This document shows, piece by piece, positions 11,596-16,398 of a stretch of 64,000 bases of DNA. The stretch comes from the human T2T-CHM13v2.0 reference genome, Homo sapiens. The notes below the pieces were generated by a model. It saw only the letters and a list, made by a program, of their open reading frames with translations, did no database searches and was not told the DNA's origin. A program made the translations under genes and the position numbers. The stretch lies in assembly GCF_009914755.1 (NCBI RefSeq), contig NC_060943.1; one strand, written 5' to 3'. Position 1 is the first letter of the stretch; each line of letters opens with the position of its first letter.

Positions 11596-14500
11596 ATGGT
11601 AATCCCCTGTGGTTGGTGATCAAGGAAGAGCATAGTGCCAGACCTAGGTGCCCTCCTGGGAATGTTCCAGGAGGGCAGGAGTAGGAGGAGGAGTGTTAGA
11701 GTAGAGGGGAAATGATGAGAGCAGAAAGGGTATCATAAAGGAACCTCAGGGGTGATATAAGTGGACACAGACATATGTCACAAGGGCACGGGTTTAGAAC
11801 AGGAAGGCTGTTGTACGTGGTTGGAGAGGGAGTTCAAAGAGTCAGAAAGCTGGTTTCAGAAGTTGAGAGGTGTTAGAGGGAGACAGGGCAGGACTTTGTA
11901 AGGTGACAAAGAAGTAGAGACTGAAACCCTGTCTCTACTACAAATACAAAAATTAGCCGGGCGTGGTGGCGGGCGCCTATAGTCCCAGCAAGAGGAGTGA
12001 ATAGGTGGTCAAATAAGGTCTTAGAGGAGCTAAAGGGGCAGGGAGCTTATGGGCGAACAGGAAAGGTTTACAGCAGGACCCCGCAGGATTCATAGGGACG
12101 AAGTAAAGGATATTATAAAAGGAACAGTGAGAGAGCTAACAGAAGTTTTACTTTGGGGGGCAGAGGTGGGAGGATCACCTGAGCCCAGGAATTCAAGACC
12201 AGCATGGGCAACATTGTAGCAAAACCCCATCTCTACCAAAAGAAAAAAATTTTTTTTTTTTTTTTTTTTTTTGAGAGAGTCTCGCTCTGTCACCCAGGCT
12301 GGAGTGCAGTGGCAGGATCTTGGCTCACTTCAACCTCCACCTCCCGAGTTCTGCCTCAGCCTCCCAAGTAGCTGGGATTACAGGTGCGTGCCACCACGCC
12401 CGGCTAATTTTTGTATTTTTAGTAGAGACGGGGTTTCACTATGTTAGCCAAGGTGGCCTCAAACTCCTGACCTCAGGTGATCCGCCCACCTCGGCCTCCC
12501 AAAGTATTGGGATTACAGGCGTCAGCCACCACACCCAGCAAAACAAAAACAAAACAAAACAAAATTTTAGTTAGCTGGGCCTGGTGGTGTGCACCTGTAG
12601 TCCCAGCCACTCAGGAAGCTGAGGCAGGAGGATCACTTGAGCCCAGGAGTTTGAGGCTGCACTGAGCTATGATTGTGCCTTTGCACTCCTACAGCCTGGG
12701 AGAGAAGACCCTGTCTCTGAAAAAAAAAAAAAAAAAAAAAAAACAGAAGACAAAGAAGTTTTACAGGGTGAGAGTTTTATAAGGGAACAGTGAATTTATA
12801 ATGAAGGTTTTATACCCAAACACAGGTCCAGTCACTCCACGCTTGCAGAGTCCAATTAACAAGAGCAAGTTCTGGTAGAAAGAAGGTGACTTTATTCCAG
12901 AGCTCAGGTGAGGGGAAGAGGTACAGGTTCCTGCCTTAAGGGTATTGCTTCAGCTTTCAGGACAGAAAGCAGGGACTTTTAAAGGGGGGCTTGATGTGAA
13001 TGACATAAAGGTGGGGGGCAAGGAGGTGTGGGGTCTATGTGACATGCTTTGATGTCTTATCTATCAGGTGTTCTAGCTGTCACCATCGTGAGAAGAGAAA
13101 TTGACCATTGTCTCAAGGCAATCTGATGGGAGAGAATTCTGGGGGTGCCTGATTTGTTTCAAGGTTCAGTCCCTGGAACTTCTAAGTAAACATATTGTTA
13201 GATAAGCTTGCCATGTAGGGAGGTTACAGTTGCATTCCTAAAGAGTTAAGTAGGAGATGGGGGGAAAAGAAAAAGGAAAAAAATCCTTTTTTTTCTTTAA
13301 AAATGGGGTACTCTGGCCAGGCACAGTGGCTCAAACCTGTAATCCCAGCACTTTGGGAAGCTGAGGCAGGCAGATCACAAGGTCGGAAGTTCAAGACCAG
13401 CCTGGCCAACACAGTGAAACCCCGTCTCTACTAAAAATACAAAAATTAGCCAGGCGTGGTGGCAGGTGCCTGTAGTCCCAGCTACTTGGGAGGCTGAGGC
13501 AGGAGAATCGCTTCAACCCACAAGGCGGAGGTTGCAGCTGAGCTCACGCCACTGCACTCCAGCCTGGGCGACACAGCAAGACTTTGTCTCAAAAAAAAAA
13601 AATGTGGTACTCAATTACAGTTTCCCACTGTCAAATTCCATTCCATTTCTATGGGATTTGGATGCCACATTCATGCTGGCTACTTCCTGCTGAAAGAGGG
13701 CATTGTGATTAGTCATCAGAATGGAACCGATCCACTTGGAGTTGGAAATATTTATGAGTAGTTGGACCAATATGGTGTAAGGTCTGGAAAGTCTCTGGGG
13801 AAGTCTGTCTTGCATTCCCATATAGAAGGTGAAACAGCAGAAAAATCCACAGCAGAGAAGTATGTCTATCATTGCAACTAGGGCCAAAGTTGTAAATAGC
13901 TTCTTTCCAGGTGAGAACAGTCCTCACCTGCAACAGGATGCCAACCATTGACCTGGTGATAATGTGGGGTCAGACATAGCTTTGATTTTTAGGTGCATGT
14001 CTCTCAGGGCTATTGAGACATTTACTGAATTATCTGAGATGTGTACACAGCATTTAGTCTTAATTGTCAGGCACATTCCCAGCTGTCAATTGTACCTGGA
14101 GCTCCTGTGGAGATATGATGACAGGGTGGTTAAACACATATATTTAACAGGTTACAAGAGGAGCTATGGGCCGGGCGTGGTGGCTCACGCCTGTAATCCC
14201 AGCACTTTGGGAGGCCGAGGTGGGAGGATCACTCAAGGCCAGGAGTTCAAGACTAGCCTGGCCAACTACCAGACCGATGAACTCAGTCTCTACTAAAAAT
14301 ACAAAAATTAGCGGGCATAGTGGTGCACACCTGTAATCCCGGCTCCTCAAGTGGCTGAGGCATAAGAATTGCCTGAGCCCAGGAGGCAGAGGCTGCAGTG
14401 AGGCGAGATCGTGCCACTGCCCTCCAGCCTGGGTGACATAGTGAGACTTTGTCTCAAAAATAAAAAATAAGTAAATAAGAAAGGGCTGGGTGTGGTGGCT

Positions 14501-16398
14501 CATGCCTGTAATCCCAGCACTTTGGGAGGCCAAGGCAGGTGGGTCACCTGAGGTCAGGAGTTCAAGACCAGCCTGGCCAACATGGTGAAACCCCAACTCT
14601 ACTAAAAATACAAAAATTAGCTGGGCATGGTAGCACATGCCTGTAATCCCAACTACTCAGGAGGCTGAGGCACGAGAACTGCTTGAACCCAGGAGGCAGA
14701 GGTTGCAGTGAGCTGAGATCACACCATTGTACTCCAGCCTGGAGAAAAGACTGAGACTCTGTCTCAGTAAATAAATAAGAGCGATACAGAGGCCAGGCAT
14801 GGTGGTTCACACCTATAATCCTAGCACTTTGAAAGATCAAGGCAGAAGGATCATTTAAGGCCAGGAGTTCAAGACAAGCCTGGGCAACATAATGAGATTC
14901 CATCTCTACAACAACAACAAAAATCAAAAATTAGCTGGGTGTGGTGGTTTGTACCAGCTACGTGGGAGGCTGAGGCAGGAGGATTGCTTGAGCCCAGGAG
15001 TTCGAGGCTGCAGTGAACTGTGATCATGCCAGTGCACTTCAGCCTGAGTGAGAGAGCAAGACCTTGTCTCAAAAAATAAAAGGGATTTGCCGGGCGCGGT
15101 GGCTCACGCCTGTAATCCCAGCACTTTGGGAGGCTGAGACAGGTGGATCACGAGGTCAGGAGATTGAGACCATCCTGGCTAACACGGTGAAACCCCGTCT
15201 CTACTAAAAATACAAAAAATTAGCCAGGCGTGGTAGCGGGCGCCTGTAGTCCCAGCTACTCGGGAGGCTGAGGCAGGAGAATGGCATGAACCTGGGAGGC
15301 AGAGCTTGCAGTGAGCCAAGATCGCACCACTGCACTCTAGCCTGGATGACAGAGCGAGATTCCGTCTCAAAAAAATAAATAAATAAAATAAAAAATAAAA
15401 AAAAGGGATAGAGAGAGGTTAGAGGAGACATGGTGGGGGTTAGAGAAAGTCAATGAGAATTTTAAATGGGGTCAATGAAGATCATATAGCTGCCAAGGAG
15501 AGATGTGTTAGGGTAAGTAGGGAGAGAGTGAGAAAGGATTGTTAGAGTTCAGAAGCCATAGTGAGACATAACCAACTCTCTGCCCCCCAGGTGTTTGAAC
15601 TGATGTCTGATGAGGATGAATCCAGCGACTACCTCTGCCTGTCCATCCTGGGCCTCTTCTGTTGCCTTCCCCTAGCCATCCCAGCCGTGATCTTTTCTTG
15701 CCTGGTGGGCACCTGCATCATGCCAATCCTTCACCCTCCCTCTCCATCTTGCCCCTGACCCTGACTCAACTTCTTCCTTGTTCTCCCTTCTGAACTAGGA
15801 GCCTGAGCAACACCAGCACCTCCTGTGGGTTCAGACCCCCACCCTGAGTCCTTACAGTTCCACAGCCCACCCTCACCCAACAACTGTTTTTTTTTTTTTT
15901 GAAACAGAGTCTCGCTCTGTCACCCAAGCTGGAGTGCAGTGGTGAGATCTCAGCTCACCGCAACCTCCATCTCGCAGGTTCAAACAATTATCCTGCCTCA
16001 GCTTCCTGAGTAGCTGGGATTAGAGGCGCCCACCAACACGCCTGGCTAATTTTCGTATTTTTGGTGGAGCTGGGTTTCACCATGTTGGCCAGGCTGGTCT
16101 TGAACACCTGACCTCAGGTGATCTGCCCACCTCAGCTTCCCAAAGTGCTGGGATTACAGGCATGAGCCACCATGCCCGGCCACGCAATAACTCTTTTATA
16201 CTCATCTTTCCCTGTTCCCTCTCTCCTAAAACTCAGACAAAGTTTGTATTGTAGACAAAGAACTACAATAAATCCAGTGACTATGAGCTGGCAGCCAAGA
16301 CCTCCAAACAAGCCTACTACTGGGCCATCGCGAGCATCACTGTGGGAATCTTAGGTACCATCTTGTACACCTACCTGATATACTTACTTAGATTGTAA
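11596..16398 (+). CDS. Candidate CD225/dispanin (IFITM/PRRT2/PMIS2-like) gene, 3 exons, 86 aa; may be a pseudogene depending on acceptor choice
   Basis: Exon 1 ATG 11596-11598|gtaatc; exon 2 15591-15704 (ctgccccccag|...CTG|gtgggc); exon 3 16255-16398 (TAA). Protein: [86 protein letters not shown]. Shows the CD225 pattern DYLxLSI..FCC.PL...A..FS, loop D...A...S..A, and a C-terminal TM helix, with the same phase-0 intron position as PMIS2. Confidence 0.7.
12150..15405. mobile_element. Alu cluster (about 8 copies) plus ERV/LTR-like sequence filling intron 1 of the candidate gene
   Basis: Alus at about 12150-12745 (nested), 13315-13600 and 14169-15405 (four tandem + strand copies). 12810-14160 is LTR/ERV-like; family not assigned. 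Confidence 0.75.
15887..16181 (-). mobile_element. Alu in intron 2 of the candidate gene
   Basis: Poly-T followed by a reverse-strand Alu dimer. Confidence 0.9.

What the first reader, a model, noticed from the sequence alone, without database searches (positions are those of the whole stretch)
11596..16398. Hidden three-exon CD225/dispanin (IFITM/PRRT2-like) microprotein gene between PMIS2 and HAUS5
Seen directly: exons 11596-11598, 15591-15704 and 16255-16398 with GT-AG boundaries assemble into an uninterrupted 86-aa [89 protein letters not shown]. From family knowledge, DYL-x-LSI..FCC-x-PL...A..FS, the D-x-x-x-A-x-x-x-S-x-x-A loop and a C-terminal TM helix are CD225 signatures, and the intron position is the family-typical one. 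It is not among the human CD225 genes I know (IFITM1/2/3/5/10, PRRT1/1B/2, TRARG1, TMEM233, TMEM265, SYNDIG1/1L, TMEM91, PMIS2). The ORF track shows only exon 2. From unverified memory, this interval is annotated as a lincRNA in human and holds an uncharacterised Riken gene in mouse. It is therefore either an overlooked protein-coding gene or a recently disabled unitary pseudogene. No canonical AATAAA follows the stop, only AATATA at 16429-16434.
Basis: partly seen in the sequence, partly recalled or inferred. Interest (0 to 1): 0.92.

Follow-up and report, generated by a model that had tools for sequence, protein, structure and literature searches.

The report
Hidden PMIS2 sister gene in LINC01766
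A human gene filed as non-coding RNA (LINC01766) carries an intact reading frame for a small CD225-family membrane protein related to the neighbouring sperm gene PMIS2; it is likely an overlooked protein-coding gene, though no protein has been detected.

Summary
The exons, splice sites and 86-codon frame are real. Both large exons match Pfam CD225, with the intron at the family position. The two coding exons are the RefSeq lncRNA LINC01766's exons 2-3, and that transcript's first ATG (15603) already opens 81 of the 86 residues. Orangutan and baboon protein models keep the frame (94% and 92% identical), in both cases spliced onto PMIS2. No non-primate orthologue was found, and purifying selection is not shown. 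The mouse Riken gene lies on the other side of Pmis2, so it is not the positional orthologue. On that side, human has a third, unannotated CD225 unit with a dead splice donor. Candidate, PMIS2 and the third unit form one clade: an old tandem cluster, which argues against the published de novo origin of PMIS2. Verdict: new member of a known family; about even odds that humans still make the protein.

The parts
11446..11584 (+). Predicted promoter: two NF-Y-consensus CCAAT boxes (11449, 11491), further CCAAT cores (11446, 11539, 11542) and a GC box (11575)
   Evidence: such pairs occur at 3 places in 64 kb, the other two being the PMIS2 and RBM42 promoters. Single-copy DNA. A RefSeq enhancer element lies at 11606-11745 (hub table). 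Activity not tested.
11590..11598 (+). Perfect Kozak context and ATG; predicted 3' end of an unannotated first exon (phase-0 donor at 11599)
   Evidence: Only GCCGCCATGG on either strand of the window. Donor weak. Unspliced, this ATG opens only 7 codons. No transcript evidence.
12845..12907 (+). Annotated first exon of LINC01766 (NR_110750.1): non-coding, no ATG, strong donor, inside an interspersed repeat
   Evidence: Hub table; about 40 other genomic matches, mostly 70-79% identical (counts are lower bounds).
15591..15704 (+). Coding exon 2: acidic N-terminus and first (intramembrane) hydrophobic segment with the Cys-Cys pair; in-frame ATG at 15603
   Evidence: PF04505 29.2 bits. Strong acceptor, above 29 of 33 annotated ones. 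Identical to the RefSeq exon. Single copy.
16237..16254 (+). Competing upstream acceptor; its use would add 6 in-frame codons ending in a stop (44-residue truncated product)
   Evidence: PWM score 5.1 against -3.5 for the annotated acceptor. Relative use unknown.
16255..16398 (+). Coding exon 3: CD225 intracellular loop, C-terminal transmembrane helix and stop codon
   Evidence: PF04505 25.8 bits. Same acceptor as RefSeq NR_110750.1. One match in the genome.
16399..16451 (+). 3' UTR with variant poly(A) signal AATATA at 16429-16434
   Evidence: RefSeq 3' end 16451 (hub table).
1213..2099 (+). PMIS2, the tandem paralogue and possible read-through partner (phase-0 donor after 1494; internal GT after 2054)
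   Evidence: Hub table; both junctions are in frame with exon 15591 (179 and 206 codons).

Best explanation
LINC01766 exons 2-3 hold an intact CD225/dispanin reading frame paralogous to PMIS2, and the locus likely still makes an 81-86-residue membrane protein, predicted to act in male germ cells as a small accessory that helps partner membrane proteins traffic or stay on the sperm membrane. Shown: the frame, family, intron position, single copy, kinship with PMIS2, human splicing of exon 2 to exon 3 (RefSeq), and an intact frame in orangutan and baboon models. Inferred: transcription from the CCAAT/GC promoter with an ATG-only first exon (or initiation at ATG 15603 in the repeat-started transcript); a cytosolic N-terminus, a palmitoylated Cys25-Cys26 re-entrant helix, a cytosolic loop and a C-terminal transmembrane helix (family knowledge and the AlphaFold helix layout); testis expression (from PMIS2 and the primate read-through models, not measured); a PMIS2-like role (by analogy with the mouse knockout). 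It is predicted not to work as an IFITM3-type oligomeric antiviral protein, because it carries Ser and Leu at the GxxxG glycines and Lys at the SNARE-like central Arg.
For: CD225 on both exons. Kept dispanin motifs: D14, CC, A33, D48, A52-x6-A59, G70, all unchanged in human, orangutan and baboon (definitions from PMC3282796). Only 16-24 of about 72 domain positions match PMIS2 orthologues, and the candidate branches outside all 17 placental PMIS2 sequences in the tree, so the duplication is likely older than the placental radiation. A neutral simulation left the frame and splice sites intact in 1 of 400 runs at 0.17 substitutions per site and 17 of 400 at 0.08 (divergence values recalled, rates assumed). 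Differences from human: 5 of 85 (orangutan) and 7 of 84 (baboon), against 7 of 74 and 8-9 of 74 (two other Old World monkeys) for the coding PMIS2 domain. GC at codon positions 1/2/3 is 0.41/0.38/0.67. Promoter pair plus Kozak: 0 of 1500 Markov simulations of the 13-kb interval gave a CCAAT pair followed by RCCATGG, and 4 of 1500 gave a looser version (pattern chosen after seeing the site). Mouse Pmis2 was itself registered as non-coding (PMC3395656), and human PMIS2 was added by the 2019 PhyloCSF survey at rank 1763.
Against: No non-primate orthologue in four searches, although one search returned 35 non-primate mammalian rows named PMIS2 among 71 hits. The mouse gene table lists nothing in the 5.7 kb between Pmis2 and Haus5. 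Amino-acid change is not clearly below neutral: 11 changes on the three-species tree against 13.8 expected, with 25% of runs giving 11 or fewer. No row at the approximate hg38 coordinates in the PhyloCSF 2019 supplements (file 8 cut, file 1 unreadable). RefSeq and Ensembl keep it as lncRNA. Exon 1 has no transcript support and a weak donor, and ATG 15603 has a weak context. The stronger acceptor at 16237 would truncate the protein. Both primate models are PMIS2 fusions, not stand-alone proteins. No expression, ribosome or peptide data were available.
Confidence: 0.52

Rival explanations
1. A transcribed unitary pseudogene in the making: an old PMIS2 paralogue that lost constraint during catarrhine or hominid evolution. 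The frame is intact only because too little time has passed, and transcription now starts in a repeat.
For: Amino-acid change compatible with neutrality. A frame left unselected for 0.016 substitutions per site survives in 58% of simulations. No non-primate orthologue found. Annotated first exon lies in a repeat. Truncating competitor acceptor. The third paralogue in the cluster has already lost its donor, so decay happens here.
Against: Intact in all three species for which sequence was seen, with none of 11 changes at a family-conserved position. Promoter-like CCAAT pair and perfect Kozak still present. As conserved as coding PMIS2.
Confidence: 0.3
2. The exons work mainly as alternative 3' exons of PMIS2: read-through splicing gives a chimeric protein with the PMIS2 N-terminus and first hydrophobic segment followed by a whole second CD225 domain.
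For: The only two database proteins with this sequence are such fusions: orangutan 'PMIS2 isoform X1' (179 aa) and baboon LOC116271670 X2. The human PMIS2 exon-1 junction is in frame and gives the same 179 codons.
Against: The two models use different PMIS2 donors, and the baboon one starts in another frame, which looks like incidental read-through. No such isoform in the human RefSeq table. The candidate has its own promoter-like site and stop. Both are automatic predictions whose read support I could not see.
Confidence: 0.13
3. A long-dead paralogue, or a true lncRNA whose CD225 likeness is incidental.
For: Current lncRNA annotation; no PhyloCSF row.
Against: CD225 score far above shuffles, exact intron position, and very low chance of an intact frame after long neutrality.
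Confidence: 0.05

Closest known systems
PMIS2 / SMA20 (PMC3395656, PMC11011635)
   Same: Adjacent, same strand. CD225 domain, intron at the same place and phase, same domain length, Ser at the G-D glycine. Same clade (UFBoot 97; three-unit clade 93.3/89). Paired CCAAT boxes upstream.
   Different: Only 16 of 70 domain positions identical to human PMIS2. Short acidic N-terminus instead of the Ala/Pro-rich one. Keeps the Cys-Cys pair, G-D aspartate and A-x6-A, which human PMIS2 lacks. Found here only in catarrhines, whereas PMIS2 is pan-placental.
IFITM1-3 (dispanin subfamily A)
   Same: CD225 domain, Cys-Cys pair, A77, D92, A96, A103 and G114 equivalents, intron position.
   Different: 17-18 of 71 identical. 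G91 is Ser and G95 is Leu (G95L impairs IFITM3 oligomers and entry restriction, PMC7665892). R85 is Lys. The first helix has a lower hydrophobic moment (0.36 against 0.47). Not in the chr11 cluster.
TMEM233 / PRRT2 / TRARG1 (subfamily B) and PRRT1 / PRRT1B / TMEM91
   Same: Domain layout and intron. TMEM233 is the most identical of the non-cluster human paralogues tested (23 of 74). PRRT1 (PDB 9zks) is the only solved-structure match at E below 0.001 for the alignment profile.
   Different: Does not fall into any of these clades. Paralogue names were assigned by me from position and recalled sequence. SYNDIG1, SYNDIG1L and TMEM265 were not in the tree.
Mouse 2200002J24Rik
   Same: Lies in the same Atp4a-Haus5 interval.
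   Different: On the Atp4a side of Pmis2 and on the opposite strand: the place of the third human unit, not of this candidate.

Membership tests
CD225/dispanin (PF04505) | Profile match above the curated cut-off | tested here: met
   Exon 2 alone 29.2 bits (cut-off 27.1); exon 3 25.8 bits; together they cover profile 3-68.
CD225/dispanin (PF04505) | Two hydrophobic helices with a loop between and a short C-terminus | tested here: met
   Hydropathy peaks near residues 25 and 73. The AlphaFold model of the baboon protein has helices 63-72, 74-92 and 96-131 (mean pLDDT 73.6). Topology itself untested.
CD225/dispanin (PF04505) | [quoted passage not shown] | tested here: met
   Phase-0 intron after the same column in the candidate, PMIS2 and 11 of 11 human paralogues examined.
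CD225/dispanin (PF04505) | Asp before helix 1; Cys-Cys and Ala in helix 1; A-x6-A in the loop; Gly in helix 2 | tested here: met
   D14, C25-C26, A33, A52/A59, G70 (features from PMC3282796).
CD225/dispanin (PF04505) | G-D motif in the loop | tested here: inconclusive
   Asp kept, Gly replaced by Ser; IFITM10 and PMIS2 also lack this Gly.
IFITM antiviral subfamily (DSPA) | GxxxG oligomerisation motif and R-SNARE-like central Arg | tested here: not met
   S-x-x-x-L and Lys (motifs from PMC7665892 and PMC11730294).
IFITM antiviral subfamily (DSPA) | Groups with the IFITMs in a tree | tested here: not met
PMIS2 orthologue group | Falls inside the placental PMIS2 clade | tested here: not met
   Outside the PMIS2 clade (support 100), as its relative; a paralogue, not a copy.
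Functional human protein-coding gene | Intact frame in a spliced transcript | tested here: met
   NR_110750.1 model: first ATG opens 81 codons.
Functional human protein-coding gene | Purifying selection | tested here: inconclusive
   Only two primate proteins, no DNA. Change rate between neutral expectation and constraint.
Functional human protein-coding gene | Translation (ribosome footprints, peptides) | not testable with these tools
   No such data held. The loop peptide appeared in 0 papers (main texts only).
Unitary pseudogene | Disabling lesion in human with an intact orthologue elsewhere | tested here: not met
   No stop, frameshift or lost GT/AG in this genome. The competing acceptor is a possible partial lesion.

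The most novel reading that the evidence does not exclude
Human chromosome 19 carries a three-member CD225 cluster between ATP4A and HAUS5: a dead-donor unit, PMIS2 and this gene. LINC01766 is a missed protein-coding gene with its own promoter and an ATG-only first exon, kept in primates but lost or unrecognised in other mammals. It makes a palmitoylated sperm-membrane microprotein and can also fuse with PMIS2 by read-through. PMIS2 therefore arose by duplication, not de novo.
Probability: 0.4. Interest if true: 0.75.

Novelty: new member of a known kind. Interest (0 to 1): 0.62.

Why it matters
New human protein-coding genes are now rare. This one would extend a family that regulates membrane traffic and fusion, and it would sit next to a gene whose loss makes male mice sterile (PMC3395656), so it is a testable fertility candidate whose variants are now read as non-coding. 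Whatever its present state, the three related CD225 units in one interval contradict the published conclusion that PMIS2 arose de novo in placental mammals (PMC11011635, whose text has no mention of CD225, dispanin, IFITM or paralog).

Tried and rejected
Mouse Riken gene as orthologue: rejected on position and strand. Closer human paralogue or processed copy: none found (the Pfam genome scan gave 43 matches, with exon 2 and PMIS2 exon 1 the only ones in this interval). Non-primate orthologues: none; the third hit (P0005, 1799 aa, repetitive) was judged spurious. ESM Atlas gave only generic CD225 clusters at 0.87-0.90. Foldseek against PDB: 0 matches at E<=0.001, uninformative for a small helical model. 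DNA-level homology of promoters or introns among the three units: not shown (z from -1.5 to 2.1). Branching order inside the cluster is unresolved: candidate+PMIS2 fell to SH-aLRT 10.4 / UFBoot 74 once the third unit was added; no rooted test was run. The first PMIS2 divergence control was misaligned by three residues and was redone. Ten paper searches found no paper describing a coding LINC01766; two papers name it only in expression or editing lists. Supplements of PMC11601488 (PeptideAtlas audit) could not be read and may bear on peptide evidence.
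Full report
Observation. Exons 2 and 3 are exactly exons 2 and 3 of the RefSeq lncRNA LINC01766 (hub table), so their junction is annotated in human. 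The RefSeq first exon (12845-12907) has no ATG and has in-frame stops. The transcript's first ATG, at 15603, is in the same frame and opens 81 codons, the whole domain. AATATA at 16429 lies 17 nt before the RefSeq end; no AATAAA or ATTAAA follows the stop within 1.1 kb.

Family. Exon 2 matches Pfam CD225 at 29.2 bits (cut-off 27.1, profile 3-29) and exon 3 at 25.8 bits (profile 32-68); PMIS2 exon 1, as a control, scored 22 bits, and PMIS2 exon 2 gave no CD225 hit. Against a profile built without candidate rows, the joined exons scored 69.6 bits and the best of 1000 shuffles 9.4. The phase-0 intron falls at the same column as in PMIS2 and in 11 of 11 human paralogues cut from this genome. The dispanin features listed in PMC3282796 (parts 1-2 of 4 read; supplement searched) are met, except the Gly of G-D. 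An AlphaFold model of the baboon protein shows two short helices followed by one long C-terminal helix over the domain. The exons are single copy.

First exon and promoter. GCCGCCATGG at 11590 is the only such site on either strand of the window; 19 of 500 Markov simulations of the 13-kb interval held GCCRCCATGG. The window has 10 NF-Y-consensus CCAAT sites, and pairs occur three times: 133/67 nt before the PMIS2 start, 87/49 nt before the RBM42 start, and 147/105 nt before this ATG, with a GC box at 11575. In 1500 simulations, 8 had such a pair, 4 had a pair followed by a purine-ATG open to a phase-0 donor, and 0 had a pair followed by RCCATGG. The pattern was chosen after seeing the site. 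The region is single copy, whereas the RefSeq first exon lies in a repeat with about 40 scored matches. Against this, the donor outscores only 3 of 33 annotated donors; 29 other ATG-to-donor candidates in the interval score higher; and 361 of 500 simulations had an RCCATG open to a donor at least as good. The PWMs rest on only 33 sites. So the promoter is plausible, but the splice from 11598 is unproven.

A weak point. The annotated exon-3 acceptor scores -3.5, below all 33 annotated acceptors. An AG 18 nt upstream, behind a long pyrimidine tract, scores 5.1; using it adds six codons ending in a stop. RefSeq and both primate models read through as at 16255. A branch-point-like CTAA at 16226 would be too close to the first AG and well placed for the second (inference). 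Relative use is unknown.

Relatives. Four protein searches found this sequence only in orangutan ('PMIS2 isoform X1', 179 aa) and baboon (LOC116271670 X2, 132 aa, a cluster of 5 members I could not list). They differ from human at 5 of 85 and 7 of 84 residues. Both are fusions: orangutan joins PMIS2 exon 1 to exon 15591, and baboon joins from inside PMIS2 exon 2. The human equivalents are in frame (179 and 206 codons). One search scored 8000 candidates and returned 71 hits. Of these, 42 besides the fusion were named PMIS2, 35 of them non-primate, so mammals are well covered, yet no non-primate orthologue of the candidate appeared. Word-based search and missing annotation of short genes may explain part of this, so loss outside primates is not shown. 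A mouse gene table (PMC12847941, one passage) lists Haus5, Pmis2, 2200002J24Rik, Atp4a in that order, with 5.7 kb and no gene between Haus5 and Pmis2.

Age and selection. The candidate shares 16-24 of about 72 domain positions with PMIS2 orthologues. In a 37-sequence tree it is sister to all 17 PMIS2 sequences (16 of the PMIS2-type hits plus human), from primates to elephant shrew (UFBoot 97; PMIS2 clade 100). SYNDIG1, SYNDIG1L and TMEM265 were left out, and paralogue names are my assignment from position and recall. The duplication therefore likely predates the placental radiation. In neutral simulations with assumed rates, frame and splice sites survived in 58% of runs at 0.016 substitutions per site, 4% at 0.08 and 0.25% at 0.17 (the matching of these values to ape, catarrhine and placental depths is recalled). 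The gene was thus likely constrained through most of primate history. Present constraint is not shown: 11 amino-acid changes on the three-species tree against 13.8 expected, with 25% of runs at 11 or fewer. Only species with an intact model can be seen, which biases towards intactness. The coding PMIS2 domain changes at least as fast (7 of 74 against orangutan, 8-9 of 74 against two Old World monkeys). The PhyloCSF survey (PMC6886504; abstract, passages and supplement searches) added PMIS2 but has no row at the approximate coordinates of the candidate or the third unit; file 8 was cut and file 1 unreadable.

A third unit. A profile scan of 3696 stop-to-stop segments from the window and 23 kb upstream found, besides PMIS2 and the candidate, one more two-exon CD225 unit (E 1.6e-10; next hit E 0.1) at about -7692 to -8444, on the minus strand, in no row of the RefSeq table. 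Both exons are open (Pfam 24.0 and 16.1 bits, both under the cut-off) and the intron sits at the family position, but it begins AT instead of GT. It is likely a pseudogene. Its place and strand match mouse 2200002J24Rik, whose sequence I could not test. The three units form a clade (SH-aLRT 93.3, UFBoot 89), with the order inside unresolved. PMC11011635 (abstract and passages) concludes that PMIS2 arose de novo; a family domain, a family intron and two local paralogues point instead to duplication.

Mechanism. From family knowledge, the protein would have a cytosolic acidic N-terminus, a re-entrant first helix with a palmitoylated Cys pair, a cytosolic loop and a C-terminal transmembrane helix; pig PMIS2 is argued to have that topology. 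IFITM3 needs its GxxxG motif for oligomers and entry restriction, and G95L impairs both (PMC7665892, passages). Its central Arg belongs to a SNARE-like motif (PMC11730294, passages). The candidate has Ser, Leu and Lys at those places, so IFITM-type antiviral action is unlikely. Mouse PMIS2 is testis-specific, and PMIS2 and ADAM3 depend on each other for presence on sperm (PMC3395656; part 1 of 5, passages and Discussion read). I therefore favour a germ-cell accessory role in delivering or stabilising partner membrane proteins. Expression, partner and function are all inferred.

Prior description. Ten full-text searches found no paper calling LINC01766 coding or CD225-like. Two papers name it in lists (passages). 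A supplement row gives it as the lncRNA ENSG00000224910 with a transcript numbered 214. The library lacks most subscription journals, and supplements were searched only for the papers named. NCBI's automatic models already carry the domain in two primates, under PMIS2 or an uncharacterised name.

Verdict. A real CD225 gene and a new member of a known family: 0.52 still coding on its own, 0.30 recently relaxed, 0.13 mainly a PMIS2 read-through partner, 0.05 long dead. Interest 0.62.

Noticed in passing
L039:3556-4308, minus strand (G000:C19:38121556-38122308; window about -8444 to -7692): Third, unannotated two-exon CD225 unit between ATP4A and PMIS2. Both exons are open, with a Pro/Met/Gln-rich N-terminus, but the intron begins AT instead of GT. 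It sits at the place and strand of mouse 2200002J24Rik; likely a unitary or unprocessed pseudogene.
   Followed up: partly
L039:2559-2693 and 2802-2874: A 135-nt 28S rRNA fragment (162 bits) and a tRNA-like match. If any Ensembl LINC01766 isoform reaches here (not tested), rRNA mis-mapping could explain its very high blood counts in PMC13388229, where it is listed beside MT-RNR1 and MT-RNR2.
   Followed up: no
L039: about 3000-3500, minus strand: Retroviral protease-like stretch just downstream of the third unit's stop (motif at 3292); HERV-K-like by recall only.
   Followed up: no
window 1929-1973: The RefSeq-selected PMIS2 isoform uses an upstream acceptor that inserts 15 residues into the CD225 domain and scores lower (8.4) than the acceptor at 1974 (12.0). 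The 135-aa form matches most mammalian orthologues; several primate and ruminant models carry a similar insert.
   Followed up: partly
window 1213-1494: The baboon model reads PMIS2 exon 1 in another frame from its own Met; the matching human frame is open over at least 1250-1360.
   Followed up: no
window 16231-16260: Both exon-3 acceptors are followed by the same six bases, as if a short duplication or insertion created the second site.
   Followed up: partly
G000:C7:95512624-95512755 and C3:33728273-33728362: Partial CD225 matches with one stop each, likely IFITM-type pseudogene fragments; fetched as L048 and L049 but not analysed.
   Followed up: no
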